From: an uncultured Nitrospiraceae bacterium
GTDB taxonomy: Bacteria > Nitrospirota > Thermodesulfovibrionia > Thermodesulfovibrionales > UBA6898
Direction: 5' to 3'
NCBI GenBank assembly: GCA_964463135.1
Contig: CAYXBA010000003.1
Span: 228,012 to 260,011, forward strand
Length of the DNA: 32,000 bases
Shown: positions 2,644 through 26,577 of the stretch, one piece after another
Numbering within the stretch: the first letter of the stretch is position 1
Layout: the number at the start of each line of letters is the position of its first letter
Notes under the pieces: generated by a model
Database searches by the model: none
What the model was told of the DNA's origin: nothing
Seen by the model: only the letters and a program-made list of their open reading frames with translations
Program-made: the position numbers and the translations under genes

Positions 2644-3827
2644 TAGCGATCACAGGCATCGGCGTCATATGCCCTGCAGGTGTCGGCAGGGAAAACCTGA
2701 CGAGGTCCTTCCGTGAAACATGCGCCGGCATCGCAGAATCGGCCAGCTTAGGCCTTCCGTACGCGGGGATCTCGACGCTCGGTGAGGTCAGGGACTTTGC
2801 GGCAAAGGACCATATCCCTGTGATGAAGGCCCGCCGCATGTCGCGCTTCTCCCAGTTCAGCCTTGCCTCTGCGATCGAGGCCATGAAAGATGCAGGCTTT
2901 GCGGTCGATGACAGCAACCGCTGGCAGGTCGCTGTAGCGGTCGGTACAGGGGTTGCAAGCACCGGCAGCACTGACCAGTTCTTTGAAGGTCTTCTGAGGG
3001 AGGGGCCTGAGGGAACAAATCCGATCCTCTTTCCGGAGACCGTACAGAATATTGCGGCAGCCCATATCTCGATGCATTTCGGCACGCGGGGCCAGAACAT
3101 CACCTTCAGCCACAATGACATATCCTCTGAGCTGGCGCTTTTCTATGCCTGCGGACTCCTGAACGACGGGTTGGCCGATATGGCGATCGTATCAGGCGCT
3201 GATGAACTGAGCGTAGCAGAACTTGCCGGATATGCAGGCTTTCATGGGCTCTCAAACCATATGATGCCCTTTGACAGAAGAAGGAACGGCTTTGTGCTTG
3301 GCGAAGGCGCGGCAACGATCATCCTGGAGAGGAAAGAAGATGCAGTCAAAAGGGGGGCTGAAATGTACTGCACTATTGCAGCAGCAGAGATAACGTCATA
3401 TCCGACACCGATCACATCGTATGACCAGAGCCGTGAATCCATGAAGACCGCGATGTCTGCTGCACTGACAAAGGCGGGCCTCGAAGTTCCGGGATTTATT
3501 GCTGCATGCGCAAACTCTACATCTGGTCTCGATCATCTGGAGGCCGAATCGATCAGGGAACTCTTCGGCCAGGCAGCCCCGGTCACTGCCTTCAGGTCCT
3601 ATAATGGTTATTTCCCTGCAGACGGCATCCTGCGGATCGCATCAGCAGCACTCTGCCTCAATCAGGAAGCAGTTCCCGCAATAGCCGGACTGAAGGAGCC
3701 TATGGACGGATGCGGACTTGACCTGGTTATCGGCAAACCAAGAACAGTCCATGCTGACTCCGCGCTCATTAACTCCTTCTCAACAGGCGGAGCTGCGGCA
3801 TCAGTAGTGCTGAGGAAAGAAGCATGA
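2640..3827 (+). CDS. KS-like partner lacking the catalytic triad (chain-length-factor / KS-beta-like)
   Basis: 395 aa with KS architecture (starts ITGIGVICPAGVG, ends FSTGGAAASVVL). The nucleophile stretch reads NITFSHNDISSELALFYA, with no Cys. The two His positions read ACANSTSGLD and FRSYNGYFPADG, with no His. Confidence 0.8.
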   Translation: MIAITGIGVICPAGVGRENLTRSFRETCAGIAESASLGLPYAGISTLGEVRDFAAKDHIPVMKARRMSRFSQFSLASAIEAMKDAGFAVDDSNRWQVAVAVGTGVASTGSTDQFFEGLLREGPEGTNPILFPETVQNIAAAHISMHFGTRGQNITFSHNDISSELALFYACGLLNDGLADMAIVSGADELSVAELAGYAGFHGLSNHMMPFDRRRNGFVLGEGAATIILERKEDAVKRGAEMYCTIAAAEITSYPTPITSYDQSRESMKTAMSAALTKAGLEVPGFIAACANSTSGLDHLEAESIRELFGQAAPVTAFRSYNGYFPADGILRIASAALCLNQEAVPAIAGLKEPMDGCGLDLVIGKPRTVHADSALINSFSTGGAAASVVLRKEA

Positions 3828-5101
3828 GGCTGACCTTCGTCATACCCAAGTGGCCGAAAGGATCGCTCTGGTCGCATATGGTATTCCGATTTCCCTATCT
3901 CGGCATAACAACGCTTGCAGCGCTCACGCCCCCGGATGTTGAGATCGTGATCCAGGATGAGAACCTGCAGGAGATCTGCTTCGAAGGGTTCGACCTTGCA
4001 GCCATCTCGATCATGACGCCGCTTGCAGTGCGCGGCTATGAGATCGCTGACCGCTTCCGGCAGTCCGGCACAAAGGTGATCATGGGGGGCTTCCATGCGA
4101 CATGGCTCCCTGATGAGGCAGGCGAACATGCTGATGCTGTTATGATCGGCGAGGCTGACGCGGTCTGGCCGACGATCATTGCCGATGCGCTGGCCAATGA
4201 TCTGAAGGCACGCTATGCTCCGTCAGAACGCTCTGATTTCAGCGGACTTCCTCCCGCACGCAGAGAACTTTTGAGAAAAGACGGCTATCTATTCACCAAT
4301 ACGATCCAGACAACGCGGGGCTGCCCCTTTGACTGCGATTTCTGTTCAGTGACCGCTTTTTACGGCAATACGTACCGGTACCGGCCGCTGGAAGATATTG
4401 AAAAAGAACTCCAGTCCATTGCCGGAGGTTCCAACTTTATTTTCTTTGTTGACGACAATATCACCGGTAATCCCGGCCATGCCAAAAAGCTCTTTGAACT
4501 TTTGAAAGGATATAAGTTCAGGTGGCTCAGCCAGACGTCCATAACCTTTGCGGACAATCCGGAACTGCTGAAACTTGCTCAGGAGAGCGGCTGCCACGGC
4601 ATGTTCATCGGGTTCGAGACCCTTATGCAGGAGGGGCTTGATATCCTGAACAAGAAGACCAACAAGTCGGCCAAATATGCAGACTCGATAAAGCGCATCC
4701 ATGATCACGGCATCGGCATACAGGGGTCATTTATTTTCGGATATGACTGGGACACCCCGGCATCCTTTGAGGCTGTCGTTGATTTTACGGAAAGGAACCG
4801 GCTCGACAGCACGCTCTTCACCATACTCACGCCCTACCCCGGAACAAGGGTCTTCAGCAGAATGATGGAGCAGGGAAGGATCCTTACCACGGACTGGTCA
4901 AAATACGACATGGCCCATGTTGTATACAAACCGATAAATATGACTGCTGAGGAACTGCAGGAAGGCTACCTCTGGGCAAACCGGCAGTTCTATTCCTGGG
5001 GCTCCATGTTCAAGAGACTGCCTGCATGGCGCAGGAGTCTCCTGGTATTCGGCCCGATGAACTGGGGTTTTAGAAAGGCCTGGCAGGAGTTCACTTACTG
5101 A
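3824..5101 (+). CDS. B12-binding-domain radical SAM enzyme (paralog 1)
   Basis: 425 aa. The N-terminal Rossmann-like cobalamin-type domain (LGITTLAALTP..VEIVIQDEN..KVIMGGFHAT) is followed by a radical SAM core with TTRGCPFDCDFCSV (CxxxCxxC) and FFVDDNI. Confidence 0.85.
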   Translation: MRLTFVIPKWPKGSLWSHMVFRFPYLGITTLAALTPPDVEIVIQDENLQEICFEGFDLAAISIMTPLAVRGYEIADRFRQSGTKVIMGGFHATWLPDEAGEHADAVMIGEADAVWPTIIADALANDLKARYAPSERSDFSGLPPARRELLRKDGYLFTNTIQTTRGCPFDCDFCSVTAFYGNTYRYRPLEDIEKELQSIAGGSNFIFFVDDNITGNPGHAKKLFELLKGYKFRWLSQTSITFADNPELLKLAQESGCHGMFIGFETLMQEGLDILNKKTNKSAKYADSIKRIHDHGIGIQGSFIFGYDWDTPASFEAVVDFTERNRLDSTLFTILTPYPGTRVFSRMMEQGRILTTDWSKYDMAHVVYKPINMTAEELQEGYLWANRQFYSWGSMFKRLPAWRRSLLVFGPMNWGFRKAWQEFTY

Positions 5102-5514
5102 TGCTCAATAAGTATAAAGCGACCGTGACGCGCTTCCTGAAGAAAGGGCTCGCGCCATCAGAGATCGCCTTTGCGATCGCACTCGGGAATTTTGTCGGCA
5201 TCCTCCCGCTTGTGGGCCTTCATACGCTCGTGGCAATCGGCCTTGCGCATCTCCTGAGGCTGAACATCATGATCGTATTTCTCGGCACCCAGATATCGAA
5301 CCCGATATCGTTTCCCTTTATTCTTTTCATCAGCGCCCAGATCGGCAGCCTTTTGCTGAGCGGCAGTCTGCTGAATATTCAGTTCACCACTGACCTCGCG
5401 ATCCTGAAGACCTATATCATGCCTACGATCATCGGCGGTGTTATTCTCGGTCTCGCGGTCAGTTCCGTCTCATACGTTCTCACGCTCAAGATCGCCAGGC
5501 GCTTCAGAACGTGA
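5101..5514 (+). CDS. DUF2062-family small membrane protein
   Basis: 137 aa with about 3-4 TM helices. The N-terminal GLAPSEIAFAIALGNFVGILPLVGLHTLVAIGLAHLLRLN..ISNP pattern is typical of DUF2062. TGATG overlap with the upstream gene and GTGA overlap with the downstream gene. Confidence 0.6.
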   Translation: MLNKYKATVTRFLKKGLAPSEIAFAIALGNFVGILPLVGLHTLVAIGLAHLLRLNIMIVFLGTQISNPISFPFILFISAQIGSLLLSGSLLNIQFTTDLAILKTYIMPTIIGGVILGLAVSSVSYVLTLKIARRFRT

Positions 5515-6851
5515 AGGTCCTCCTCGCGTACCCCTTCAGGGAAGACACTTACCGCAAGGTCGGCTTCATCCTCCCGCCCATGGGCATTGCCTATATCGCA
5601 TCCGTACTCAGGAACAACGGGCATGAGGTGAAGATCGTCGATTTCAATGTCACGGATGAAAAGATCGATTACTCCGGGTTTGATATTGTCGGCATCTCTG
5701 CTGACACGAGCAGATACAAGAGCGGTCTTCTGCTTGCGCAGGAGGCAAAGCAGGCAGGCTGCACTGTGGTCATGGGCGGCCCGCATGTCAGCTATAAGGA
5801 TGAAGATGCGCTCAGGACCGGGTTCTGTGACTTTGTTGTGCGCGAGGAAGGCGAACAGACGATGCTCGAACTTGCAGATACCCTCGGCACTGAGCAGGCC
5901 TATGCTGTCAGAGGCATCAGCTATCTGAAGGACGGCGAAATCCAGAGGACTCCCGGCAGGGGGTTCATCGACAATATCGACGACCTCATTCCTGCCCGCG
6001 ACCTGCTGGATATGAAGTCCTACCGCCACCTCGAGATGGGCAAGAGGAAAATGACATCTATTCTTACCAGCAGGGGATGCCCGTTCGGCTGCTCCTTCTG
6101 CTGCTCCACCGAGTTCAGCGGAAGGAAGTGGAGGTCCCGCAGCCCCCTGAAGATCGTGGACGAGATAGAAGACATTGTCACAAACCATGACTTCAACGGC
6201 ATAGCCTTCCTTGACGACAACTTCACCCTCGACCCCAAGCGGGTCATCGCGATCTGCGACGAAATCGTGCGCAGGAATATCGACATCTACTGGTGGTGCT
6301 TTTCACGCGCTGACACGCTCCTGAAGAACGAGGCGATGGTCGCAAAGATGGCTGCAGCAGGCTGCAAGTACATCTTCATCGGCTTTGAGTCGCGCCACCA
6401 GTCAACGCTCGACCAATACAACAAGAGCATCACCGACAGCATGGCAAAGGATGTGACCGAACTCCTGAGAAGATACAATATCTCTGTTCATGCGAGCTTC
6501 ATCATCGGCAACATCGACGAGACACGGGCAATGGTGATGGAAACCGTGCGGTACGCAAAGCAGATCGATCCCCAGGCAGTGCAGTTCACGATCCTTACTC
6601 CCTATCCCGGCACAAGGCTTTTTGACGAGGTGAAGGACCGGATCATTACTGATGACTGGGACCTGTATGACTGTCTGCACTCTGTGGTGCGCACTGACCA
6701 TCTCGGGCAGAAGGAGCTTGAGGCCCTGCTTAAAAAGGCCTATCTGACGTTCTATCTCTCGCCGAGCAAGGTCGCGGCCGGCCTCCTGAGCAGCTTCCGC
6801 GGCAAGGGCATCAAGCTCAGCTCCATACTCAGGATATTCAGGGGCCTCTGA
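5511..6851 (+). CDS. B12-binding-domain radical SAM enzyme (paralog 2)
   Basis: 446 aa with a GTG start. MKVLLAYPF..MGIAYIASVLRNNGHEVKIVD is the B12-type domain. Cluster motif TSRGCPFGCSFCCS, then FLDDNF. Confidence 0.85.
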   Translation: MKVLLAYPFREDTYRKVGFILPPMGIAYIASVLRNNGHEVKIVDFNVTDEKIDYSGFDIVGISADTSRYKSGLLLAQEAKQAGCTVVMGGPHVSYKDEDALRTGFCDFVVREEGEQTMLELADTLGTEQAYAVRGISYLKDGEIQRTPGRGFIDNIDDLIPARDLLDMKSYRHLEMGKRKMTSILTSRGCPFGCSFCCSTEFSGRKWRSRSPLKIVDEIEDIVTNHDFNGIAFLDDNFTLDPKRVIAICDEIVRRNIDIYWWCFSRADTLLKNEAMVAKMAAAGCKYIFIGFESRHQSTLDQYNKSITDSMAKDVTELLRRYNISVHASFIIGNIDETRAMVMETVRYAKQIDPQAVQFTILTPYPGTRLFDEVKDRIITDDWDLYDCLHSVVRTDHLGQKELEALLKKAYLTFYLSPSKVAAGLLSSFRGKGIKLSSILRIFRGL

Positions 6852-8260
6852 TGCGAGTCCTGCTCGTCTCCCCGAACCGTGAGCATCTGCCTGATCCGGT
6901 CTTTCCTCTCGGCCTCTCGTACATTGCATCCGCTCTCAGAAAGCATGATCACGCTGTCAGCATGATCGATCTCTGCTTTTCTGAGGATATGGACAAGGAC
7001 ATTGAAAAGGCTGTCCGCACTTCCCGGCCGGATGTGATCGGCATGTCGCTCAGAAATATCGATGACGTCTGCTACCCGAAGCAGCACTCCTATCTGCAGG
7101 AATATAAGACCACGATCGGATCTCTCAGAAGGTACTCTCAGGCCCCGATCGTTTTAGGCGGTTCCGGCTTTACCATTATGCCTAATGCGTTCATGCAGGA
7201 ACTCGGCGCTGATTTCGGGATCACAGGCGAAGGTGAAAAGGCCTTTCCTGAATTGCTGAAGAAGATAACCTCCCTCGCTCCCTCCCTGGTAAGGAAGGAA
7301 GCTGAAATACGTGGCGCGGCTGCCGGGCATGTCCTCCCTCCTTTCCAAGGCGGGATTGAGGGGGGTAATGATCGCATCATTTCATCCCGCTCGCGGATCA
7401 AGGATCTGGACTGCGTTGTCCCTGACCGGGAACTCTTTGACAGCAGTTCCTATTACCGTCTCGGCGGCATGCTGAATATCCAGACAAAAAGGGGCTGTCC
7501 CTTCAAATGCATCTACTGCACGTATCCCAAAGTGGAGGGCAGGACCGTCAGGATGCGCAGCCCGCAGTCAGTTGCTGATGAAATGGAAGCGATCATAGCA
7601 AATACAGGCGCACGCCACTTCTTCATCGTTGACAGCATCTTCAACTATCCGGTCAGCCATGCAAAGGCGGTCTGCGATGAGATCATCAAACGCGGCCTCG
7701 ATATCCAGTGGTCGTGCTACGCAAATCCTGCTCACATGACAGAGGACCTTGCAGACGCCATGGTCAGGGCCGGCTGCACCGGTGTTGAGTTCGGCACCGA
7801 CTCTCTTGTTGACGAACTGCTCAGGAACATGGGCAAGAGCTTCACCTTCAGCAAGGTAAGGAAGGCATCGCTCATATGTAAGAATGCAGGCCTGAAGTTC
7901 TGCCATTTCATCTTTGCAGGCTCACCGGGAGATACTGATGAGACGATCAAAATGACCCTTGCGCGGCTTGAAGAGATCGCGCCGGATGCTGCGGTGATCA
8001 TGGCAGGGATCAGAATATTCCCCGGCACAGTCCTGGCAGAGCGTGCAAGGCAGGACCTCGGCATCTCGACCATAGGCCTTAAACCGGTCTTCTATCTTTC
8101 AGAAAAACTGACGGATTACGATGCCGTGGCCGAGGCGGTCTCGAAGAAAAAGAACTGGATCATGCCGGGGTATGAGATCAATTTTTATCCGCGCCTCCAG
8201 AAGAAGCTCAGGGAGCACGGCATCAAGGGTTCGCTCTGGGAAGGACTGGGGAAACGGTGA
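6851..8260 (+). CDS. B12-binding-domain radical SAM enzyme (paralog 3), with a 13-codon insertion
   Basis: 469 aa. MRVLLVSPN..LGLSYIASALRKHDHAVSMIDL is the B12-type domain. Cluster motif TKRGCPFKCIYCTYP, then FIVDSIF. It carries the extra segment HVLPPFQGGIEGG relative to paralog 2 (see repeat feature 7333-7365). Confidence 0.85.
   Translation: MRVLLVSPNREHLPDPVFPLGLSYIASALRKHDHAVSMIDLCFSEDMDKDIEKAVRTSRPDVIGMSLRNIDDVCYPKQHSYLQEYKTTIGSLRRYSQAPIVLGGSGFTIMPNAFMQELGADFGITGEGEKAFPELLKKITSLAPSLVRKEAEIRGAAAGHVLPPFQGGIEGGNDRIISSRSRIKDLDCVVPDRELFDSSSYYRLGGMLNIQTKRGCPFKCIYCTYPKVEGRTVRMRSPQSVADEMEAIIANTGARHFFIVDSIFNYPVSHAKAVCDEIIKRGLDIQWSCYANPAHMTEDLADAMVRAGCTGVEFGTDSLVDELLRNMGKSFTFSKVRKASLICKNAGLKFCHFIFAGSPGDTDETIKMTLARLEEIAPDAAVIMAGIRIFPGTVLAERARQDLGISTIGLKPVFYLSEKLTDYDAVAEAVSKKKNWIMPGYEINFYPRLQKKLREHGIKGSLWEGLGKR
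7333..7365 (+). repeat. C-rich/G-rich hairpin-forming element embedded in frame in the radical SAM gene
   Basis: CCTCCCTC (7333-7340) pairs with GAGGGGGG (7358-7365): 8 pairs including one T:G. The loop is 17 nt. The element lies entirely inside the 39 nt (7328-7366) encoding HVLPPFQGGIEGG. That segment has no counterpart in my by-eye alignment with paralog 2. Confidence 0.4.
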
Positions 8261-13663: not shown

Positions 13664-13873
13664 ATGTTTAAAGAAAGCAGGGCGTTACTAATCGCAGGGA
13701 TCTTTCTGATTCTCATTTCAGGCTGCGCATCACAGCATATGAGACCGGCAGGACCCGATGCCCCCTGCGGCGGCTGCACTGCCGCAGGGCTTTCCCTGAA
13801 GAAATGGATCTATCGCTTAAATTCTTTTTCGACCGTCTCCTTTATCTGCTGCACCGTATATCCTTTTTTGTAA
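13664..13873 (+). CDS. possible small lipoprotein (doubtful)
   Basis: The N-terminus is a good lipoprotein signal (LLIAGIFLILISGC). The last ~21 codons are antisense to the read-through extension of the PCYCGC gene, and the ORF contains the strong hairpin 13763-13789. The RBS is weak. Confidence 0.3.
   Translation: MFKESRALLIAGIFLILISGCASQHMRPAGPDAPCGGCTAAGLSLKKWIYRLNSFSTVSFICCTVYPFL
13763..13789 (-). terminator. GC-rich hairpin downstream of the copper/PCYCGC operon
   Basis: CCCTGCGGC (13763-13771) and GCCGCAGGG (13781-13789) form a perfect 9-bp stem with a 9-nt loop. It lies about 20 nt after the minus-strand TAG at 13810-13812. No clear U-tract follows. Confidence 0.4.
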
Positions 13874-14217
13874 AGCTCGGAAGCCCGCAGGGCCTCCCCT
13901 AAACAGATATCTCAAACCGAAGCATGATTGTCAACATAGCAGCTCAGCAGGCTCTTATGCCTGAAGGTCGGAGATTCCTTGCACATGCAGAAGCAGTAGA
14001 TACTGTCCAGGACCCACGGGATTTCCCTTGCTGCCTGATAGGCAGCTTTCACGCGGGCATCGTTGAATTTTCCAGGATCAAGTGTTGCCCTTGTCTCCCC
14101 TTTCCTGAGTGACTGATCATACGTGCCCGAAAGTTCTTTCTGGGCGCCTTCCGAAACAGCTGCCATCAAGAGAACAGGCAGGATAATTACAGCAAGTATT
14201 GCACTAAGCCATTTCAT
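13810..14217 (-). CDS. PCYCGC-family secreted protein with in-frame TGA at 13912-13914 (candidate selenocysteine, U-x-x-C)
   Basis: The track ORF 13912-14217 ends ...SIYCFCMCKESPTFRHKSLLSCYVDNHASV then TGA. The same frame continues for 33 codons without a stop (DICLGEALRASELYKKGYTVQQIKETVEKEFKR) to TAG 13810-13812. Signal peptide MKWLSAILAVIILPVLLMAA. The CxCxC motif is CFCMC. A hairpin lies 14 nt after the TGA. Confidence 0.6.
13879..13897 (-). promoter_or_regulatory. candidate bacterial SECIS hairpin for TGA 13912-13914
   Basis: Minus-strand RNA GGAGGCCC-UGC-GGGCUUCC forms an 8-bp stem with one G:U pair. That pair would be an A:C mismatch on the other strand. The stem starts 14 nt after the UGA. 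Confidence 0.5.
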
Positions 14218-14280: not shown

Positions 14281-15099
14281 CTAATTACCCGAAGGTTTCG
14301 GCTTTTGTGGCGGTTCCTGGAACACATCCATTATCAGATCGATGCTGTGTGTCTGACCGTTATGCCTGAACTCGGCGAATACCACCCTTTTCCCGGGTTT
14401 CATAAAGACCGCGCTCACCGCAACCTCCGGGCCGCCGAGGTTCTGTTTCGGCGTCACATAAATAAATTCCTGAAGGTCCGCATTCCATGAAGCGAGTGTC
14501 ATGTCAGCACCATTCACTTTTTCGATATCCTTGATCGGTTCCCCGTTGTAGGACAGAACAAAAAGAAAGGTTGCTACATGATCAGCATAGACTTTCTGCG
14601 GGATGAGCTTTACCTTCACGTCATATCCTTTATCCTTATCAGTGTCATCCGCCTGCTTTCCGGCTCCCTTCAGTTTGATATCCTTCTTCAGGTTCAGCCA
14701 ACCTTTTTCAGACCTAAAAACGAACTCAAATCGGTACGTGCCGGACTTGGGAGTGAGAAAGGAGAATGAATACCTGCCATCGCCAAGAACAGGCCTGATA
14801 TGCTGAAAGAAATGGAGATCGTTGTCTGTGACAAACAGATGCATCTCCTGGATCTGTTCAGCCTTTTCCTGCCTCACTTCAAACGTAAACCGTCCGTCAA
14901 CAGGAGCGGCCGGGATTCCGGAATTCATGATTATCTCATATCCTCCGGGGTCCCTGACCACATGCCAGATATAGGGCTTCTCATTGTGTGTATCCGGTAT
15001 GACCAGCACCTCCTGATCAAGGTCGAGCTGTCCATAGGCAGCTGAAGCCAAGGCCGTCAGCATCATTATCAGGGCCGTCAGAATTCCTTTCATCTTCAC
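14281..15099 (-). CDS. periplasmic two-domain Ig-like (YtkA/FixH-like) protein, probable metal handling
   Basis: 272 aa. Signal peptide MKMKGILTALIMMLTALASAAYG. Two beta-rich halves. The motif MHLFVTDNDLHFFQHIRPVLGDGRYSFSFLTPKSGTYRFEFVF is of the kind seen in periplasmic proteins next to copper exporters. It begins 1 nt after the upstream stop. Confidence 0.5.
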   Translation of the reverse strand: MKMKGILTALIMMLTALASAAYGQLDLDQEVLVIPDTHNEKPYIWHVVRDPGGYEIIMNSGIPAAPVDGRFTFEVRQEKAEQIQEMHLFVTDNDLHFFQHIRPVLGDGRYSFSFLTPKSGTYRFEFVFRSEKGWLNLKKDIKLKGAGKQADDTDKDKGYDVKVKLIPQKVYADHVATFLFVLSYNGEPIKDIEKVNGADMTLASWNADLQEFIYVTPKQNLGGPEVAVSAVFMKPGKRVVFAEFRHNGQTHSIDLIMDVFQEPPQKPKPSGN

Positions 15100-15100
15100 C

Positions 15101-17152
15101 TCAATGATGATGCCTCATGGCCATGGGCTGGCCGAGGATATAAGCGTTCAGGACCATCAGCAGAACAGCAAGCACTGCCATGGGTATAAATGCCCTGAGG
15201 GCCTTGTCGCCATAATGTTTTACCGCTATTCGGTACCCCGCGTACAGGGAAAAAATATTCATTACCAGGAAAATTGCCATCTGGAGCCAGAATATGGTTT
15301 CAGCTCCCATCAGCGGCGTGACTGACCAGTCAGGGCTTCCGATACCGGCAAGCATATTCGTCAACCTCTCCACTGCCGGGACGATCTCAGGACCTTCCCT
15401 GAAGAGGTGGTTTATATTATGAGCAAGGTGCATCGAGAGCCCGACCGGGATGAACATATACGCAAACTGAACAAATGTGCGCTTGAGGGAAAGCGGAGAT
15501 TCAGGGCCGGTAAGTTTCCTGACCACAAGACTGCTTATGAGGAGAAGCAGAGGGGCTATTACGAGCGACCCTGCAGTGAATACGACCAGGAACGTCGTCT
15601 TTTCTCGCGCAGCGTGTGAGATAATCCCGAGCATATCGAGCGGCAGGACCTTGCCGACCGCATCCATCCACCGATGCCACGGTTCTATCATCTCTCCGGT
15701 GACGACTATGGTAATGCCGACAAGCGCCATCACAAAGAGCGCCTCGTCAAGATATCCCTTTGAGGAGACCCAGAGGTCTTTTGCAAAGCTCCTGAACCGG
15801 ATGACGATATTGTCCTGGGAACAGGACTTTATGCATTCGCTGCAGAAATTGCAGTAGTTGTTTCTATCCAGTGTCATCGGGGTCACGAACATCGGACAGC
15901 CATGACTCGTATCGGTCCCTTTTATGCACTCTTTTACTTTGTGGCCCCTGCATACTTCAAGGCACTTGTTCCTGAGTTCGAGAGGGCTGAACATCGAATA
16001 TATCGCTATCAGGCCTCCTATAGGGCAGACATACCTGCAGAATGATCTGCCCTTGAAGATAAGTGCCATGCCGGCAGCGACAGCAAAAAACCCCAGAAGG
16101 AGATATGCTGTGAGGGCAGGTTTGTTCACAATACCACTATAACTGTCCCACCATGTCAGACCAAAGAATATGAAGCTTGAAAGGTAGATGCTTCTGAGCG
16201 GCTTGGGGAAATCTCTGTTCATGCTGATCAGACGCCCTATCCAGTCCTGTATTGCGCCAAAGGGACACATCATGCACCATATCCTGCCGATCAGGACAAA
16301 GGTAAAGATAATTGCTGCCCACCATATGGTCCACATCAGCAAGGTCGCTATATTTCTGTCACCCTGCTGAATATCGAACAGTCCTGCGCCGATTATGACC
16401 AGGAAAACTAAAAGAACGGGTATCTGAAAGACCGGCTGAAACCAGGCTGATCTAAAAAAACTCCGGAGCCATGGTATATCTAGCAGGTTCATTTTCTGGC
16501 CAGGTCCAAGACTGAGCGCTCTTCTCTGATTAATAATGACAAGCCCGAGAAGGCCGCTCAATATAATGAGCCCGATTACGACGATCATTCTGTACAGGGG
16601 AACTCGTGATCTTTCCTGATACGAGATCTTACCGCCGTATATCAGGGGTTCAGCAAAGGTCTTCCCCTGAAGTGACTTGATCGCAAGCGTAAATGCAAAA
16701 TCTCCCTTTTCTTCAATCGGGTATGCTGCTGAATACATGCCGGCCATCTGCCCGGGTTCAAGCTTCCTGAAGCTTGACAGGTCCGGCATCGACGTCATGG
16801 ATGACATCTCCATCGGCTCGCCAAAATCAAGTCCGCCACCCTGACCGCCGTTCCCGGATGACTGAGTCATCTGTTGTGTGGTATGGTCCATCGGCTGGTC
16901 CTTCTCAAGCTTTATATAGAGGTCAGCGCCATAGAGAGGCTCACCGGACATTGGATCAGCCAGGGATACGACAATTTGCTGAGCGCTTCCCTTTTGATAG
17001 TATTCGGGATCAAGCCGCAACGTTACATTCGCGCCAGCAATCCTAAAAGAATTTCCGATGGCAGTGTGGTCATGGCCTTCCATAGCAGAGGAATGCCTGC
17101 CGGATAACAACATGAGTGAAAATACCATAAGTGCTGAGATGACCTTTTTCAT
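15101..17152 (-). CDS. NapH/NosH/CcoG-like membrane polyferredoxin with N-terminal Met-rich periplasmic domain
   Basis: 683 aa. Signal peptide, then a periplasmic domain with HDH and the Met-rich tract GEPMEMSSMTSMPD. Multiple TM helices carry CxxCP motifs (IWCMMCPFGAIQDW, FCRYVCPIGG). Cytoplasmic ferredoxin motifs CNFCSECIKSCSQDN and CLEVC..HGCPMF. The C-terminus is AMRHHH. Confidence 0.75.
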   Translation of the reverse strand: MKKVISALMVFSLMLLSGRHSSAMEGHDHTAIGNSFRIAGANVTLRLDPEYYQKGSAQQIVVSLADPMSGEPLYGADLYIKLEKDQPMDHTTQQMTQSSGNGGQGGGLDFGEPMEMSSMTSMPDLSSFRKLEPGQMAGMYSAAYPIEEKGDFAFTLAIKSLQGKTFAEPLIYGGKISYQERSRVPLYRMIVVIGLIILSGLLGLVIINQRRALSLGPGQKMNLLDIPWLRSFFRSAWFQPVFQIPVLLVFLVIIGAGLFDIQQGDRNIATLLMWTIWWAAIIFTFVLIGRIWCMMCPFGAIQDWIGRLISMNRDFPKPLRSIYLSSFIFFGLTWWDSYSGIVNKPALTAYLLLGFFAVAAGMALIFKGRSFCRYVCPIGGLIAIYSMFSPLELRNKCLEVCRGHKVKECIKGTDTSHGCPMFVTPMTLDRNNYCNFCSECIKSCSQDNIVIRFRSFAKDLWVSSKGYLDEALFVMALVGITIVVTGEMIEPWHRWMDAVGKVLPLDMLGIISHAAREKTTFLVVFTAGSLVIAPLLLLISSLVVRKLTGPESPLSLKRTFVQFAYMFIPVGLSMHLAHNINHLFREGPEIVPAVERLTNMLAGIGSPDWSVTPLMGAETIFWLQMAIFLVMNIFSLYAGYRIAVKHYGDKALRAFIPMAVLAVLLMVLNAYILGQPMAMRHHH

Positions 17153-17721
17153 TTTTTCCTGAGTATCTCATTAATGATAAGAAGCCCTCTCCTAGCACCC
17201 GATGCTATGGCCTGCGCAGATCCGGCTGTGCCGACAGGTGCTGTTATATCGGTCCCGACCCTGATCGGGTCAGTTGCCTTCTTTCCCTCGAACTGCTTGA
17301 GAAAAGCCTGCTGACTTAACTTCGGCGACTCATTGTTCTCAAAGATATGTATTTTCGTGAGCTCGCCTTTACCGTTCACAACAAGGCCGATCTCGATCTT
17401 TCCGTTTTCACCAAGAGCGTCTACGAACAGGATCACCGCTGCCTTGTGTGGAGGATTGTCCGCATTGGTCTTGACGAGGGCAAAATAGATGGAAGGTTTC
17501 AAATCCTCTTCACGTAGCCCGCTTCCAAGAGACTTTTCTATCGCAACTCTCTGCTGATCAGTCACATAGAGATTCTTCTGCTCAAAGGAGACTGCCTGAG
17601 AGTAAAGGGCTTTCAATTTTTCGCCCGGCCAGACAAGGTCGTGGGCATATGATAATGAAGCATATAGACAGAGCATGATTGCTGCTGAACCTATTGTTGT
17701 TATTACTCTATCCCGTCTCAC
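17149..17721 (-). CDS. exported FMN_bind-like domain protein (NosR N-terminal-domain-like)
   Basis: 190 aa with a GTG start and a signal anchor. The C-terminal DITAPVGTAGSAQAIASGARRGL resembles the FMN-attachment stretch of NosR/NqrC/RnfG-type FMN_bind domains. ATGA overlap with the polyferredoxin gene. Confidence 0.45.
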   Translation of the reverse strand: MRRDRVITTIGSAAIMLCLYASLSYAHDLVWPGEKLKALYSQAVSFEQKNLYVTDQQRVAIEKSLGSGLREEDLKPSIYFALVKTNADNPPHKAAVILFVDALGENGKIEIGLVVNGKGELTKIHIFENNESPKLSQQAFLKQFEGKKATDPIRVGTDITAPVGTAGSAQAIASGARRGLLIINEILRKK

Positions 17722-17883
17722 TGAATTATCCTTTCGATTTCCGTTCCTTAGATAAATTTACTACAAAAGTTTGAAGAATCTTTGAACAAAAAGTGAAGAT
17801 ACCGTGAAACCTTCGCCCGATTAAATCTCGATAAAGTTCCCGTCGAGCGACGGTTCTTCTGCATCTTCAGTCTCCTAGTCGCC

Positions 17884-20130
17884 TCAAAGTTTCACTCTTC
17901 TCAGTCGGAGCGCGTTGCTGATAACCGAAACAGAACTGAAGCTCATGGCTGCAGCAGCAAATATCGGGCTGAGGAGGATGCCAAAAAAGGGATAGAGAAC
18001 ACCAGCGGCTATTGGCACACCAAGGGCATTGTACACAAAGGCAAAAAAGAGGTTCTGCTTGATATTCCGCATCGTTGCCCTGCTCAATCTTCTCGCCCGC
18101 ACGATACCCCGCAGGTCACCCTTCACCAGGGTAACGCCCGCACTCTGCATGGCCACGTCCGTCCCGGTACCCATAGCAATGCCGACATGCGCCTGTGCCA
18201 GGGCAGGCGCATCGTTGATGCCGTCACCGGCCATGGCAACGATCTTCCCCTGTGACTGCAGCTTCTTAACAATATCGGCCTTCTGGTCGGGCAGCACTTC
18301 GGCGATCACTTCATCTATGCCGAGTTTTTTACCCACCGCCTCTGCGGTAGTCTTACTGTCGCCGGTGATCATCACAACACGGATTCCTTCTTCATGAAGT
18401 TTCGCTATCGCCTCGGCAGTCGTTGCCTTTATCGGGTCCGCAACTCCGAGGAGGCCGGCAGCCTTTCCTTCCACAGCCACGAACATGGCGGTCTGACCCT
18501 CTTTGCGCATCTCCTCTGCTTTGTCCGGAAGTTCTCCCGGTGCAATCCCGAGTTCTTCGAGAAGCTTGCGGTTGCCAAGGGCTGTCTTCTTTCCGTCAAG
18601 AATGCCGGTTACCCCGCGTCCGGTAAGGGACTCAAAAGACTCAACCTTTAAAGGTGTAACGCCCCTTTCCTTTGCGCCTGCCACGATTGCTGCAGCCAGA
18701 GGGTGCTCACTCCCCATCTCGATGCTCGCAGCAAAGTGAAGCAGGGTCTTCTCCTCGAATCCGGATGCAGGGACCACATTCACCAGTTTCGGCTTTCCTT
18801 CGGTAAGGGTGCCGGTCTTGTCCGTCACCAGGGTGTCAACGGCCTTCATTACCTCGATAGCCTCTGCATTCTTAAAAAGGACCCCACCTGTTGCTCCCTT
18901 GCCCATCGCAACCATGATCGACATCGGCGTTGCCAGGCCGAGGGCGCAGGGGCAAGCAATGATCAGGACAGCTACCGCATTGACGAGTGCATACGCCATG
19001 CGCGGCTCAGGCCCGCTCCATGCCCAGACCGCAAAGGTGAGGAACGCGATACACACCACGAACTGGACAAAATAGCCGGCAACGATGTCTGCCAATTTCT
19101 GGATCGGTGCGCGGCTCCTCTGGGCCTCGGCAACCATATTGACAATCTGCGCCAGGAGCGTCTCGGCCCCGACCTTCTCTGCTTTCATTACCAGCGTGCC
19201 GGTACCGTTTACCGTAGCGCCGATCACCCGGTCCCCTGACTGCTTCATCACCGGGATCGGCTCACCTGAGATCATGGATTCATCCACGCTGCTTGATCCT
19301 TCAGTGACAGCGCCGTCAACAGGGACCTTTTCACCAGGCCGAACACGGAGGAGATCACCCGGCTTTATCTGTTCAAGAGGGACATCCTCTTCCTGACCGT
19401 TCATTATCCTACGCGCAGTCTTTGGGGCAAGCCCAAGCAGGGCTTTGATAGCTGCACCGGTCCTTGTTCTTGCCCTCAATTCCATCACCTGGCCGAGCAG
19501 CACGAGAGCGGTGATGACTGCTGCGGCTTCGAAATAGAGGCTGACTTCTCCCCCCTCACTGCGAAATGAAGATGGGAAAATACCGGGGAACAGAGCAGCC
19601 ACAACGCTATACAGATAGGCAACGCCGACGCCGATTCCGATAAGCGTAAACATGTTGGGGTTCCAGGTTATGACCGACTGCCAGCCCCTGACAAAGAAAG
19701 GCCATGCTCCCCAGAGCACAACAGGCGTTGCAAGGCCCAGTTCCAACCATTTACGTATTCCATGGGGCACCATGTCTATGATCGAGGAGAGGCCCGGAAT
19801 CATACGGCCCATGACGAGTATGACAAGCGGAATTGTGAGCACAACGCTGACCTTAAACCTTCGCGTCATGTCTATGAGTTCCGGATTTTTCTTCTCTTCA
19901 TCACTGACTGATCTTGGTTCGAGGGCCATGCCGCACTTTGGGCATGAGCCGGGGCTATCGCGTACGACTTCCGGATGCATCGGACAGGTCCACCCAGCCG
20001 TGGTCACACCCGCAGTCGGCGCAACCGGCTCAAGCGCCATGCCGCATTTAGGACAGAAGCTGGGACCAGCCTGTCTTACCTCAGGATGCATGGGACAGGT
20101 AAAGATGTCCTCTTCTTTTAACGTCTTCAT
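17884..20130 (-). CDS. copA: Cu(I)-translocating P1B-type ATPase
   Basis: 748 aa. Two N-terminal CPMHPEV...[10 protein letters not shown] metal-binding ribbons. Motifs: SGEP, TM CPC motif [32 protein letters not shown]. Confidence 0.95.
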
Positions 20131-20169: not shown

Positions 20170-20412
20170 TTATAACTTATCCTTGTTGCTCAAAAGCTCA
20201 TCTTTAATCCGCTCGTATTCTTCTCTGGATATTTCACCTTTTGCATATCTCTTCTTCAGGATATCAAGCGCAGTTTCATCCTTTTTATCTCCCCCTGCCA
20301 TCCTCTTGATGAGATATGCAATGCAGACAATGACCAGCAGCCAGAAAATCACCATAAACGGCCCGCCAAAACCCATTCCCCAACCCCAACTATAATCTCC
20401 CCAATGCATCAT
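20170..20412 (-). CDS. SHOCT-domain small membrane protein
   Basis: 80 aa. One TM helix (FMVIFWLLVIVCIAYLI) and the C-terminal SHOCT motif ALDILKKRYAKGEISREEYERIKDEL. A strong RBS (GGAGG) precedes the ATG. Confidence 0.7.
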   Translation of the reverse strand: MMHWGDYSWGWGMGFGGPFMVIFWLLVIVCIAYLIKRMAGGDKKDETALDILKKRYAKGEISREEYERIKDELLSNKDKL

Positions 20413-20779
20413 AATTGCACCTCCCTGAATGAGATATCTCTCTTGTTCCCTGAGAGCTAGGAAGCCCTGATTTCATTATACTCCCCAATAGCTTTACCCC
20501 CTAATTGGCCCACCTCAGAGACAACAAATACCACAGCCGGTTCATATTTTCTTCATATCGATCACCTAAACTGTTTACATGAACATAAACATCAGACAAC
20601 CGGCAGGCAGATGGACACTGTTTACCCTGATCCTGGCAGCTGTTAGTATTCTCGGGCTTGCAGGTGCATGGCTGTATGCCGATGCCGTTGTCAGCAGCTG
20701 GACTGCAGCGAAGAGATCTGTTCCTGCAGAGTCCTGTCCGACACCGAACGCTGCGTACACGAAAAAGGAGAGAAAGACC

Positions 20780-21454
20780 ATGACAACCGCGGTTGAGAAA
20801 TCTATGATCCCGCTTATTGACAGGACATTGCCCGCAAAGACGGAGACAGCGACCTTCGGGCTTGGCTGATTCTGGGGGCCTGACTCCCGGTTCGGGAGTA
20901 TCTCAGGAGTGATCAGGACCCGCGTCGGTTACAGCGGCGGGACAAAGCCAAACCCGACCTACAAGAGTCTCGGCGATCATACCGAGACGATAGAGATCGA
21001 TTTTGACCCGACCAAGATCACGTATGAACAGCTGCTGGAGATCTTCTGGAGCAGCCACGATCCGGCAGGATGGTCATGGGCAAAGCAGTACAGGAATGTC
21101 ATCTTTTATCACAACAAGATGCAGAGACAGTCTGCAGAAAGAACACGCGACCGCATCGCTGCGCAGACCGGCAAAAAGGTCCGCACCGATATCGAACCTG
21201 CAGCAACATTCTACCTGGCCGAGGACTATCACCAGAAGTTCAGGCTTCAGCAGGACCCTCTGCTTGCTGCAGAATATGATGCCATCTATCCGGACATAAA
21301 GAGCTTTGTCGATTCTACGGCAGTCAGTCGGGTCAACGGATACCTCGGCGGATACGGCAGTTCCGCCGGACTGAACAGGGAGATCGATGGTCTCGGCCTT
21401 TCAGACGCAGCAAAAAAACACCTGCAAGATATTGTGGCCGGTTCAGGCCGGTGA
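20780..21454 (+). CDS. msrA: peptide-methionine (S)-S-oxide reductase MsrA with TGA (20867-20869) at the catalytic Cys position (candidate selenoprotein)
   Basis: The track splits it into 20579-20869 and 20909-21454, which share one frame. The joined reading is ...TATFGLG-[TGA]-FWGPDSRFGSISGVIRTRVGYSGGTKPNPTYKSLGDHTETIEIDFDP..., i.e. the MsrA GCFWG signature with TGA in place of Cys. I prefer the start at ATG 20780 because of AAGGAG 9 nt upstream. The alternative ATG 20579 would add a TM-like N-terminus (RWTLFTLILAAVSILGLAGAWLY). The start is unresolved. Confidence 0.8.
20883..20899 (+). promoter_or_regulatory. candidate bacterial SECIS hairpin for TGA 20867-20869
   Basis: ACUCCCG-GUU-CGGGAGU is a perfect 7-bp stem starting 13 nt after the UGA. 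The apical region contains G and U residues. Confidence 0.6.
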
Positions 21455-23429: not shown

Positions 23430-24658
23430 AGCAATGCCTCTATCTCCATATCCGTGATCTTCTTTGAAACAAACTCGGGTTCTACATTATACGTCTTTTT
23501 CTCCCTGCCGAGCGTAACTTCGCCGCCGCCGGTGATATTCAACAGGACCGTATCCGCACTGCTCACCGCCTTCTTCTGCACAGCCTGTCTCAGTGCACCG
23601 ACAGCAACACCCGCAGCAGCAACAATATCAATGCCCTCAAGGTTGCTGAACAGTTCCATGGATTCAAAGACTTCCCGGTTCGTAACGCCGTACATTGCAC
23701 CGCCGCAGGCATGCATCGCATCGAAGACGCCCCCCTTAACAGCGTATGCAGGATAACGGGTCGAAAGCACGCGCGTCGTTATCTGGCCGATCAGTTCAGG
23801 CCGCAGGTCTTCAGAAAAAAGCTCCCTGCTGCTTTTTTCCCATGCCTTTACCATCGGCGCGAACGGCAGGTTCTGCGCAAGATGGAGCTTCGGAAGGCGG
23901 CTGCCGAACCGGCCGTCACGCAGGAATCTTTCTGACATCTCCCACACGCCGACGCCTCCTGTGCCGCTGCCGACAGCCTGAAAATAATGGTCTGGCAGTT
24001 TCCTGATCTTTGAGACCGCCTCAAGGATCGTCGAGCCGAGCCCGTCCCGCTTTGCAATATTCTTCACCCCGCCCTCGAACGGGAAGCCCGAGATCGCCGC
24101 TATCCTCCTCGCCACGTCAATGGCATCGGAATAATCGCCGTCACCCACAGCAAGCGTAGGCACCATGGAGGAGCTTTCGAGATACCACATCTCTGTCAGG
24201 CACATCCGGGGCACAACGATCACCACAGGAAAACCTGAGACAACAGAAAGATGGGCAAAGGCGCGGGCAGTGTTCCCTGCCGATGCAACGATCAGCCCCT
24301 CGACCCTGTTCTCAGCCGCATTCTGCAGCACGATCGCTGCTTCAAACTCTTTGAAGGTGCAGGTCTGGAGCAGTGCTCCCCTTTCCGGCCAGAAGCCGTT
24401 AAAGGCGATATAGAGATCTTCAAGACCGAGGTGCCGCGCAAGCCACTCGGACTTGTACACCAGCGTGCCCGGCTGCTCAAAGGTCGGTGTATGCACAGGC
24501 AGCCAGTTGAACTTCCAGATGCCGCTGCCGCAGTCGTCACGAAACGCGTCTTTATATTTCGTGACCAGCAGGGAATCCGGGCAGTGCTCGCAGAACGCAC
24601 AATAGACATCGGTCAGTTCCTTGCCGCATCCTCTGCAGGTTATCGTAAAATGACTCAT
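23405..24658 (-). CDS. threonine-synthase-fold PLP enzyme, cysteate-synthase-like
   Basis: 417 aa. N-terminal 4-Cys ribbon CRGCG..CAFCEHC. PLP fold-type II core (TCTFKEFEA lysine context, VASAGNTARAFA, QAVGSGTGG). The cysteate synthase call rests on adjacency to the decarboxylase and on knowledge of the Methanosarcinales CoM route. A plain threonine synthase is not excluded. Confidence 0.5.
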   Translation of the reverse strand: MSHFTITCRGCGKELTDVYCAFCEHCPDSLLVTKYKDAFRDDCGSGIWKFNWLPVHTPTFEQPGTLVYKSEWLARHLGLEDLYIAFNGFWPERGALLQTCTFKEFEAAIVLQNAAENRVEGLIVASAGNTARAFAHLSVVSGFPVVIVVPRMCLTEMWYLESSSMVPTLAVGDGDYSDAIDVARRIAAISGFPFEGGVKNIAKRDGLGSTILEAVSKIRKLPDHYFQAVGSGTGGVGVWEMSERFLRDGRFGSRLPKLHLAQNLPFAPMVKAWEKSSRELFSEDLRPELIGQITTRVLSTRYPAYAVKGGVFDAMHACGGAMYGVTNREVFESMELFSNLEGIDIVAAAGVAVGALRQAVQKKAVSSADTVLLNITGGGEVTLGREKKTYNVEPEFVSKKITDMEIEALLCRILKKN

Positions 24659-26551: not shown

Positions 26552-26577
26552 AACCCTGCTTTTCGCAGCATTACACC

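What the first reader, a model, noticed from the sequence alone, without database searches (positions are those of the whole stretch)
13810..14217. Candidate new selenoprotein: a PCYCGC-family protein with UGA in a U-x-x-C motif and a SECIS-like hairpin
Seen in sequence: the annotated ORF stops at TGA 13912-13914 after ...CYVDNHASV. The same frame runs 33 more sense codons (DICLGEALRASELYKKGYTVQQIKETVEKEFKR) to TAG, so read-through would create V-U-D-I-C. Fourteen nt after the UGA the mRNA can form GGAGGCCC-UGC-GGGCUUCC. Its G:U pair exists only on the coding strand. A second gene 7 kb away (msrA) shows the same arrangement, which argues that this organism decodes UGA as Sec. Established knowledge, from memory and to be verified: PCYCGC-family proteins carry, after the PCYCGC motif, a C-terminal H...C-x-x-C followed by a helical tail. 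The TGA would align with the first Cys of that pair. Bacterial SECIS elements lie directly downstream of the UGA. Inference: this is a secreted thiol/selenol redox or metal-handling protein at the end of the copper operon. I am not aware of this family among described selenoproteins.
Basis: partly seen in the sequence, partly recalled or inferred. Interest (0 to 1): 0.8.

Follow-up and report, generated by a model that had tools for sequence, protein, structure and literature searches.

The report
Known CYCXC selenoprotein, truncated in annotation
The gene really does encode a small exported selenocysteine protein whose annotation stops too early at the UGA, but the family (CYCXC/OS_HP4) is already a catalogued selenoprotein family, so this is a correct reading rather than a discovery.

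Summary
ORF 13912-14217(-) ends at TGA, and 33 in-frame sense codons run on to TAG 13810-12. An 8-bp hairpin starts 14 nt after the UGA.

The selenoprotein reading is strongly supported.
- In 80 related genome loci the aligned codon is TGA in 66, TGC/TGT in 13 and NGA in 1.
- The 33-codon tail is under coding selection.
- The hairpin is kept in 96.5% of pair cells, with G-C/G-U/A-U covariation. It is absent from the Cys forms (about -14 versus -5 kcal/mol).
- A Sec-type msrA (GLG-U-FWG) lies 7 kb away.

The novelty claim fails. The read-through product scores 122.9 bits (cut-off 90) against NCBIfam NF041379, "OS_HP4_CYCXC, CYCXC family (seleno)protein". Two reviews (2022 and 2026) list OS_HP4/CYCXC (PF13798, UxxC) as a predicted prokaryotic selenoprotein family. 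NCBI already names relatives this way.

Function is still unknown. Gene neighbourhood points to periplasmic copper or thiol handling: Cus-like RND efflux, CopA, YHS or YtkA genes lie beside 47 of 61 analysed Sec-form loci, and a NosR/NapH-like module beside 16. In an AlphaFold model of a Cys relative, the residue equivalent to Sec caps a helix N-terminus.

Verdict: real, already known, low interest.

The parts
13810..14217 (-). Full CYCXC-family selenoprotein gene: 135 codons plus TAG, with an in-frame UGA at codon 102
   Evidence: The translation is. The read-through product scores 122.9 bits (cut-off 90) against NCBIfam NF041379 across profile positions 1-90. It scores 36 bits (cut-off 25) against Pfam PF13798. 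tblastn matches in 80 genome loci cover residues up to 135.
14146..14217 (-). N-terminal signal peptide (about residues 1-24, MKWLSAILAVIILPVLLMAAVSEG|AQK). The cleavage site is approximate.
   Evidence: This is a hydrophobic N-terminus read directly from the sequence. Cys-form relatives have a lipobox (L-x-S-C) at the same place. The cleavage site is inferred, not predicted with a tool.
13981..13995 (-). C-x-C-x-C motif (CFCMC, residues 75-79), the family's CYCXC signature
   Evidence: C75, C77 and C79 are invariant in 40- and 60-sequence alignments.
13912..13914 (-). UGA selenocysteine codon (residue 102), the first position of U-D-I-C
   Evidence: The aligned codon is TGA in 66 of 80 genome loci, TGC/TGT in 13 and NGA in 1. 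It aligns with the first Cys of CDIC, which every full-length Cys-form homologue examined carries. It corresponds to profile position 57 of NF041379.
13903..13914 (-). U-x-x-C motif (U102-D-I-C105)
   Evidence: In the AlphaFold2 model of Cys-form P0121, the equivalent C105 lies immediately before helix 106-120.
13879..13897 (-). SECIS-like hairpin: an 8-bp stem (GGAGGCCC/GGGCUUCC) with a UGC loop, starting 14 nt after the UGA
   Evidence: It is the minimum-energy structure. Across 61 Sec-form sequences, 96.5% of pair cells are paired. Pair 21-33 is G-C in 25, G-U in 19 and A-U in 14, with no A.C. The local mean MFE is -13.9 kcal/mol in Sec forms and -5.3 in Cys forms.
13813..13911 (-). 33-codon C-terminal extension missed by the annotation (DICLGEALRASELYKKGYTVQQIKETVEKEFKR)
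   Evidence: Codon-position entropy is 0.51/0.38/1.15. This resembles the 33 codons upstream (0.50/0.46/1.31) and differs from the sequence after the final stop (1.85/1.87/1.89). The extension is exactly 33 codons in 53 of 61 loci. On its own it scores 35 bits, E = 1e-8, against NF041379 positions 58-90.
14281..20130 (-). Upstream genes on the same strand: copA (17884-20130), an FMN_bind-like protein (17149-17721), a NapH/NosR-like Fer4_5 membrane protein with a Met/His-rich N-terminus (15101-17152), and a 272-aa secreted protein (14281-15099)
   Evidence: Pfam and NCBIfam assignments are. The three middle genes accompany the CYCXC gene in 13-16 other loci, in either gene order.
20579..21454 (+). 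Second selenoprotein gene in the window: Sec-type MsrA, with TGA 20867-20869 in GLG-U-FWG and a hairpin at 20883-20899
   Evidence: It matches PF01625 and PF20939 'Selenoprotein methionine sulfoxide reductase A, helical domain' and TIGR00401 at 130.7 bits. The translation is and the fold.

Best explanation
The gene at 13810-14217(-) encodes a 135-residue exported member of the already catalogued CYCXC family of (seleno)proteins (OS_HP4; NCBIfam NF041379; Pfam PF13798 superfamily).

UGA 13912-14 is decoded as selenocysteine. I infer that the conserved hairpin at 13879-13897 acts as the bacterial SECIS element that recruits SelB and Sec-tRNA(Sec). The public annotation, which ends at the UGA, is a truncation.

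The mature protein is a small helical, Cys-rich periplasmic protein with C-x-C-x-C, two invariant His, one more invariant Cys, and U-x-x-C. By homology to a modelled Cys-form relative, the Sec sits at the N-terminal cap of a helix, the usual position of a reactive or metal-ligating CxxC residue.

My inference on function has a probability of about 0.45. The protein would use the selenol/thiol pair, together with the CxCxC/His cluster, to bind Cu(I) (or another soft metal) or to carry out thiol-disulfide chemistry in periplasmic copper homeostasis. It would work alongside CopA, Cus-type RND efflux and a NosR/NapH-like electron-transfer module.

Shown: gene structure, family membership, the Sec/Cys pairing, hairpin conservation and the neighbourhood statistics. 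Inferred: actual Sec insertion, export and the biochemical role.
For: Family:
- NF041379 scores 122.9 bits (cut-off 90) and spans the UGA.
- The truncated 101-aa product scores only 76.6 bits, and the extension alone 35 bits.
- PF13798 is also matched.

Literature:
- OS_HP4/CYCXC is listed as a UxxC selenoprotein family.
- NCBI names homologues 'CYCXC family (seleno)protein'.

Sec/Cys pairing:
- 66 TGA against 13 Cys codons at one aligned position in 80 genomes.
- The position aligns with the first Cys of CDIC in every full-length Cys-form homologue examined.

The tail is coding:
- It shows codon-periodic conservation and a fixed length of 33 codons.

SECIS:
- 96.5% of pair cells are paired, with one covarying pair and no A.C.
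- Two divergent Sec forms (L077, L081) rebuild a 7-bp stem from a different sequence at the same place (read).
- The hairpin is about 8.6 kcal/mol weaker in Cys forms.

The organism uses Sec:
- A Sec-type msrA lies in the same window.
- TGA is otherwise an ordinary stop, ending 20 of 31 genes.

Function:
- 47 of 61 analysed Sec-form loci have Cus-like OEP/CusB/CusA, YtkA, YHS or CopA genes within 4.5 kb, and 16 have the NapH module.
- The model places the Sec-equivalent Cys directly before a helix.
Against: - There is no experimental evidence of Sec insertion for any family member; the reviews list the family among the predicted ones.
- selA, selB, selC and selD are not in the window, and no tRNA was found. 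The rest of the genome could not be searched.
- The hairpin of this single sequence is not statistically exceptional (z = -1.1 to -1.8).
- Most stem positions encode conserved amino acids, so only one pair can covary strongly.
- Function: 12 of 61 analysed Sec-form loci and all nine Cys-form loci whose neighbourhoods were analysed lack copper genes. The Cys forms instead sit by TlpA/ResA, ResB, CcsA and Rnf. That fits a general thiol-redox role as well as a copper role.
- No solved structure or significant fold match constrains the mechanism.
- Many loci are from related Nitrospirota MAGs, so the neighbourhood counts are not independent.
Confidence: 0.85

Rival explanations
1. The UGA is a genuine stop. 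The functional product is the 101-residue protein, and the downstream 33 codons are a relic or a separate element.
For: Gene callers and the public records give 101 aa for this gene and for most of its 456 homologues. Long sense runs after TGA are common in this window. The single-sequence hairpin z-score is weak.
Against: The tail shows codon-periodic purifying selection equal to that of the upstream coding part, and it has a fixed length. It matches the C-terminal third of the family profile. Cys-form homologues read straight through. The truncated product would lose the conserved CxxC and falls below the family cut-off.
Confidence: 0.03
2. The UGA is recoded, but to an amino acid other than Sec. 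Examples are Cys or Ser through an incomplete or altered Sec pathway, Trp or Gly through a variant code, or near-cognate read-through.
For: One database homologue (P0005) is translated with Trp at this position. The Sec machinery could not be checked in the source genome.
Against: TGA terminates 20 of 31 genes in the window, so the code is standard. P0005 comes from a 990-nt contig, and its genome equivalents L050 and L053 carry TGA, so the Trp is most likely a gene-caller table artefact. A conserved SECIS-like hairpin specific to the TGA forms and a canonical Sec-type MsrA point to the standard SelB route.
Confidence: 0.05
3. It is a Sec-containing family member whose role is periplasmic thiol-disulfide oxidoreduction (a CcmH/ResA-type helper for cytochrome c or cuproprotein maturation), not copper binding or detoxification.
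For: All nine Cys-form loci whose neighbourhoods were analysed, and 6 Sec-form loci, have a TlpA/ResA-like redoxin nearby; most of the Cys-form loci also have ResB and CcsA. The best fold matches, though not significant, are CcmH periplasmic domains (2kw0 at E = 2.1; 2hl7 with TM 0.59 on the target). According to the 2026 review, most uncharacterised selenoproteins are thought to be redox proteins.
Against: The Foldseek matches are not significant, hhalign against E. coli CcmH gives a probability of 1%, and there is no Pfam CcmH signal. Most Sec-form loci sit beside metal-efflux genes rather than cytochrome c biogenesis genes. Eight invariant Cys/Sec/His residues are more than a simple dithiol oxidoreductase needs.
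Confidence: 0.3
4. The in-frame TGA is a sequencing or assembly error, or the gene is a pseudogene in this MAG.
For: The window comes from a metagenome-type assembly. The 2007 paper warns that candidates known from a single sequence may be errors.
Against: An independent Logan assembly (ERR3839026) carries the identical gene with the TGA. Sixty-six other genomes have TGA at the same codon.
Confidence: 0.01

Closest known systems
CYCXC family (seleno)protein, also called hypothetical protein OS_HP4 (NCBIfam NF041379; credited to Zhang & Gladyshev 2007, NAR 35:4952; listed in PMC9312934 and PMC13188914)
   Same: It passes the equivalog HMM above the cut-off. It shares the C-x-C-x-C motif, the U-x-x-C motif with one Sec, the roughly 90-residue core and the Sec/Cys alternation between lineages.
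   Different: Nothing of substance differs; this is a member. The copper-efflux neighbourhood documented here did not appear in any paper my searches found: only the 2026 review table mentions CYCXC.
PCYCGC-motif (lipo)proteins, Pfam PF13798, for example the Parageobacillus lipoprotein AOT13_14730
   Same: It is homologous over profile positions 51-141. It shares the three-Cys motif plus further conserved cysteines, it is exported or lipid-anchored, and its function is unknown.
   Different: The Firmicute proteins are all-Cys lipoproteins with a literal PCYCGC motif. The window protein has IYCFCMC, a cleavable non-lipoprotein signal peptide, and Sec in place of the first Cys of CxxC.
Predicted metal-handling selenoproteins with UxxC (Sec-containing E1-E2 cation ATPase N-terminal domain, mercuric transport protein, YHS-domain selenoprotein, CopZ-like selenoproteins)
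   Same: Sec replaces a Cys of a CxxC-type motif in a protein encoded among heavy-metal resistance genes. The 2026 review says such Sec residues may act as metal ligands.
   Different: These are unrelated folds and families. No metal binding has been shown for the CYCXC family.
CcmH/NrfF periplasmic helical CxxC oxidoreductase (PDB 2kw0, 2hl7)
   Same: Both are small periplasmic helical domains with a CxxC outside the thioredoxin fold. CcmH gives the best, though weak, fold matches. The Cys-form genes neighbour cytochrome c biogenesis genes.
   Different: Similarity is not significant: Foldseek E = 2.1, hhalign probability 1% and no Pfam hit. CcmH lacks the CxCxC/His cluster.
Selenoprotein MsrA (GUFWG form with the PF20939 helical domain)
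   Same: It uses the same recoding arrangement in the same window: a UGA at the catalytic Cys position and a hairpin 13-14 nt downstream.
   Different: It is an unrelated enzyme. It is relevant only as evidence that the organism decodes UGA as Sec.

Membership tests
CYCXC family (seleno)protein (NCBIfam NF041379, OS_HP4) | The full-length protein scores at or above the curated equivalog cut-off (90 bits). | tested here: met
   The read-through product (U written as C) scores 122.9 bits, E = 4e-36, over profile positions 1-90 of 90. The truncated 101-aa product scores 76.6 bits, which is below the cut-off.
CYCXC family (seleno)protein (NCBIfam NF041379, OS_HP4) | A C-Y/F-C-x-C motif is present. 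| tested here: met
   CFCMC occupies residues 75-79. C75, C77 and C79 are invariant in the alignments.
CYCXC family (seleno)protein (NCBIfam NF041379, OS_HP4) | A UxxC motif is present, with Sec (TGA) aligned to Cys in homologues. | tested here: met
   U102-D-I-C105. Among 80 loci the codon is TGA in 66 and a Cys codon in 13. The reviews give the motif as UxxC.
Bacterial selenoprotein gene (generic criteria) | A SECIS-like stem-loop lies immediately downstream of the UGA and is conserved among Sec forms. | tested here: met
   An 8-bp stem starts 14 nt after the UGA. 96.5% of pair cells are paired in 61 sequences, with one covarying pair. The hairpin is absent from Cys forms. bSECISearch itself was not available.
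Bacterial selenoprotein gene (generic criteria) | The genome encodes selA, selB, selC (tRNA-Sec) and selD. | not testable with these tools
Indirect support comes from a canonical Sec-type msrA in the window.
Bacterial selenoprotein gene (generic criteria) | Selenium is incorporated into the protein. | not testable with these tools
   This needs 75Se labelling or mass spectrometry. The family is listed among the predicted selenoproteins, not the experimentally verified ones.
Pfam PF13798 PCYCGC | The HMM score is at or above the gathering threshold (25 bits). | tested here: met
   36 bits, residues 53-134 against profile positions 51-141 of 153.
Pfam PF13798 PCYCGC | The literal P-C-Y-C-G-C sequence is present. 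| tested here: not met
   The window has I-Y-C-F-C-M-C. Only the C-x-C-x-C spacing is kept, which is why NCBI uses the name CYCXC.
CcmH/NrfF family | There is significant sequence or fold similarity to the CcmH periplasmic domain. | tested here: not met
   Foldseek gives E = 2.1 and probability 0.51. hhalign against E. coli CcmH gives probability 1%. No PF03918 hit appears in 60 members at E <= 10.

The most novel reading that the evidence does not exclude
The CYCXC selenoprotein could be the periplasmic selenol-based copper-handling component of a previously undescribed pathway. It would bind Cu(I) through Sec102, Cys105 and the CxCxC/His cluster, or reduce it. It would be kept reduced by the co-travelling NosR/NapH-like FMN/Fe-S membrane module or by TlpA-like redoxins, and it would pass metal to the CopA and Cus-type exporters. 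That would be a selenium-dependent branch of copper detoxification in anaerobic Nitrospirota.
Probability: 0.2. Interest if true: 0.55.

Novelty: already known. Interest (0 to 1): 0.2.

Why it matters
The practical value is in annotation. This gene and most of its 456 database homologues are recorded as 101-residue truncations that lack the U-x-x-C motif and the C-terminal helices. Proteomic and comparative analyses of these Nitrospirota therefore miss the active part of the protein.

Scientifically, the family is an uncharacterised predicted selenoprotein. The neighbourhood statistics gathered here give a concrete, testable lead on its function: Cus-type efflux, CopA, YHS, YtkA and a NosR/NapH-like module beside the Sec forms, and TlpA-ResB-CcsA beside the Cys forms. 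The finding does not add a new selenoprotein family or a new recoding mechanism.

Tried and rejected
- **Rfam:** a scan of the whole window at gathering thresholds gave no hit, and ARAGORN found no tRNA or tRNA-Sec.
- **Single-sequence folding:** the hairpin is the minimum-energy structure but is not significant against shuffles. I therefore relied on comparative evidence.
- **OS_HP4 in the 2007 paper:** the main text names only OS_HP1-3, and no supplement is held. The attribution rests on the two reviews.
- **Solved structures by sequence:** nothing was found.
- **Structure prediction of the window protein with U written as C:** I modelled the Cys-form homologue P0121 instead.
- **CcmH lead:** tested with hhalign and Pfam and rejected as unsupported.
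- **Other recoded genes in the window:** a scan of all 31 genes found only the CYCXC gene and msrA.
- **Terminator after the TAG:** there is a GC-rich hairpin without a T-run, which is not significant.
- **Literature on function:** searches for PCYCGC and CYCXC found only a lipoproteome note and the review table.

Full report
**Observation.** The minus-strand ORF 13912-14217 encodes 101 residues ending ...SCYVDNHASV at TGA 13912-13914. The same frame continues for 33 sense codons (DICLGEALRASELYKKGYTVQQIKETVEKEFKR) to TAG 13810-13812. Fourteen nucleotides after the UGA, the mRNA forms GGAGGCCC-UGC-GGGCUUCC (13879-13897). This is the minimum-energy structure of the local RNA, at -14.9 kcal/mol for 45 nt. 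Its G:U pair exists only on this strand.

These features alone are not beyond chance. Seven of the 20 TGA-terminated genes in the window have at least 27 sense codons after their stop. The hairpin's z-score against dinucleotide shuffles is only -1.1 to -1.8. The case rests on homology and comparison.

**What it is.** With U written as C, the 135-residue product matches Pfam PF13798 (PCYCGC) at 36 bits against a cut-off of 25. More tellingly, it matches NCBIfam NF041379.1, "OS_HP4_CYCXC, CYCXC family (seleno)protein" (an equivalog model), at 122.9 bits against a cut-off of 90. The match covers residues 42-134 and profile positions 1-90, so it runs straight across the UGA. The annotated 101-residue product reaches only 76.6 bits, over profile positions 1-56. 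The 34-residue tail alone scores 35 bits (E = 1e-8) on positions 58-90, which puts the UGA at profile position 57.

**Comparative evidence.**
- A protein search returned 456 homologues, nearly all recorded as about 101 residues, that is, truncated at the same place.
- A scan of one genome per species returned 80 loci, mostly Nitrospirota/Thermodesulfovibrionales MAGs. In these, tblastn matches extend to residue 135.
- At the aligned codon, 66 loci have TGA, 13 have TGC/TGT and one has NGA.
- The Cys forms come mainly from Deltaproteobacteria/Thermodesulfobacteriota-type MAGs and read H-A-x-x-C-D-I-C-I-N-E-A-L-M-A. In a 60-sequence alignment the window's U sits on this first Cys, which every full-length Cys-form homologue carries.
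- The tail is coding. Its per-codon-position entropy is 0.51/0.38/1.15, against 0.50/0.46/1.31 for the 33 codons upstream and 1.85/1.87/1.89 after the final stop. It is exactly 33 codons long in 53 of 61 loci.
- An independent assembly (Logan ERR3839026) carries the identical gene with the TGA, which rules out an assembly error.

**The hairpin.**
- In 61 Sec-form sequences the eight proposed pairs are formed in 96.5% of cells. Sliding the 3' partner by one column drops this to about 65%.
- Pair 21-33 is G-C in 25 sequences, G-U in 19 and A-U in 14. Every GAA (Glu) codon co-occurs with GCU and never with GCC, so A.C never appears. In the Cys forms, A.C occurs at this pair in 3 of 9 sequences, and pair 19-35 is G.A in all 9.
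- Pair 19-35 alternates between G-C and G-U through the Ser/Phe codon.
- Two divergent Sec forms (L077, L081) build a 7-bp stem, GAGGCGC/GCGUCUC, from a different sequence at the same position (read).
- The mean local folding energy is -13.9 kcal/mol in Sec forms and -5.3 in Cys forms.
- RNAalifold recovers the core five pairs.
- Most stem nucleotides encode conserved residues (G-E-A-L-R-A-S/F), so covariation is limited. The contrast between Sec and Cys forms is the stronger argument.

**Does the organism use Sec?** No Sec machinery gene or tRNA lies in the window, and the rest of the genome could not be searched. However, msrA (20579-21454, +) has TGA 20867-20869 at the catalytic position of GLG-U-FWG. 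It matches TIGR00401 and Pfam PF20939, [quoted passage not shown]. It also has a 7-bp hairpin (20883-20899) starting 13 nt after its UGA. TGA otherwise ends 20 of 31 genes, so the genetic code is standard. One database homologue (P0005) shows Trp at the Sec position. It comes from a 990-nt contig, and its genome equivalents carry TGA, so I read this as a gene-caller artefact.

**Novelty.**
- The 2022 review PMC9312934 lists "Hypothetical protein OS_HP4, UxxC".
- Both credit Zhang & Gladyshev 2007. That paper's main text names only OS_HP1-3, and its supplement was not available.
- NCBI already labels homologues "CYCXC family (seleno)protein" (P0202, P0222, P0229).
- The family belongs to the computationally predicted group, not the experimentally verified one.

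**How it probably works.**

*Shown:*
- The protein has an N-terminal hydrophobic signal sequence; Cys forms have a lipobox instead.
- The invariant residues are C75, C77, C79, H87, C93 and H98, plus U102 and C105.
- An AlphaFold2 model of the Cys-form P0121 has a mean pLDDT of 79.6, above 90 over most of the core. It is all-helical and places the Sec-equivalent C105 immediately before helix 106-120. This is the helix N-cap typical of reactive or metal-binding CxxC motifs.
- No solved structure or significant fold match exists.

*Gene neighbourhood:*
- In the window, the gene ends a same-strand cluster: copA, an FMN_bind-like protein, a 683-residue NapH/NosR-like Fer4_5 membrane protein with a Met/His-rich N-terminus, a 272-residue secreted protein, and then CYCXC.
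- Neighbourhoods were analysed for 61 Sec-form loci. In 47 of them, Cus-type OEP, CusB-like HlyD_D23, AcrB-type RND, YtkA-like, YHS or CopA genes lie within 4.5 kb. They are usually directly downstream on the same strand.
- Sixteen of the 61 have the NapH-like module, in either gene order.
- The nine Cys-form loci analysed, and six Sec-form loci, lie beside a TlpA/ResA-like redoxin. Most of the Cys-form loci also have ResB, CcsA and RnfAB nearby.

*Inferred:* this is a periplasmic Sec/Cys-rich protein acting in copper homeostasis. It either binds Cu(I) or performs thiol/selenol redox chemistry linked to it. I give the copper-handling reading about 0.45 and a general thiol-oxidoreductase reading about 0.3. 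A resemblance to CcmH (Foldseek E = 2.1) did not survive testing: hhalign gave a probability of 1% and Pfam gave no signal.

**Verdict.** The finding is a member of an already catalogued selenoprotein family that the source record mis-annotates as a truncation. Interest is low. The residual value lies in the annotation correction and in the copper-efflux neighbourhood as a functional lead.

Noticed in passing
window 20579-21454 (+); TGA 20867-20869; hairpin 20883-20899: msrA is a selenoprotein form (GLG-U-FWG) with the PF20939 'selenoprotein MsrA helical domain'. If translation starts at 20579, it has an N-terminal hydrophobic segment (MNINIRQPAGRWTLFTLILAAVSILGLAGAWLYA), which would mean an exported or membrane-anchored Sec-MsrA. 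The annotation splits it at the TGA.
   Followed up: partly
window 14281-17721 (-): Three genes lie between copA and the CYCXC gene: an FMN_bind-like 190-aa protein (weak hit, 18.7 bits), a 683-aa NapH/NosR-like Fer4_5 membrane protein with a Met/His-rich periplasmic N-terminus and a C-terminal HHH, and a 272-aa secreted protein with no family. They travel together with the CYCXC gene in 13-16 other genomes, in either order. Together they resemble a split NosR-type electron-transfer module.
   Followed up: partly
loci L068-L076, also L066, L078-L080: The Cys-containing CYCXC homologues are lipoproteins. In the nine whose neighbourhoods were analysed (L068-L076), they are encoded next to a TlpA/ResA-like redoxin, ResB, CcsA (System II cytochrome c biogenesis) and RnfA/RnfB. 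This context differs from that of the Sec forms.
   Followed up: partly
protein P0005 (Logan contig, 990 nt); compare L050:6286 and L053:6217: A database homologue is recorded full-length with Trp at the Sec position. The gene was evidently called with a TGA=Trp table on a short contig. The equivalent genome loci have TGA.
   Followed up: partly
window about 20170-20412 (-): A small ORF of about 80 aa lies just upstream of copA. It has a hydrophobic segment and a C-terminal ...LKKRYAKGEISREEYERIKDEL motif. From memory this looks SHOCT-like; it was not scanned against any library.
   Followed up: no
window about 13760-13790 (-), 22 nt after the TAG: A GC-rich 9-bp inverted repeat (CCCUGCGGC...GCCGCAGGG) follows the true stop codon. 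It has no T-run and is not significant against shuffles (z = -1.1). It may be a transcript-end structure.
   Followed up: partly
window 1435-8260 (+): A cluster of two beta-ketoacyl synthase genes, three B12-binding radical SAM genes and a DUF2062 gene. It looks like an unusual lipid or secondary-metabolite modification cluster.
   Followed up: no
window 24655-31924 (-): A corrinoid methyltransferase-type cluster: URO-D/MtaA-like, a B12-binding corrinoid protein, a ferredoxin, the RACo reductive activator, DUF6951 and an HdrD-like CCG/Fer4 protein.
   Followed up: no
alignment A4 / E. coli CcmH (L082:2052-2411:-): The helix after the CxxC (AYELHKKGESMDAIRKAIDERF) lines up with the CcmH segment VYELMQEGKSKKEIVDYMVARYG. 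The top two relevant Foldseek hits are CcmH domains. However, every score is non-significant (E = 2.1; hhalign probability 1%).
   Followed up: yes
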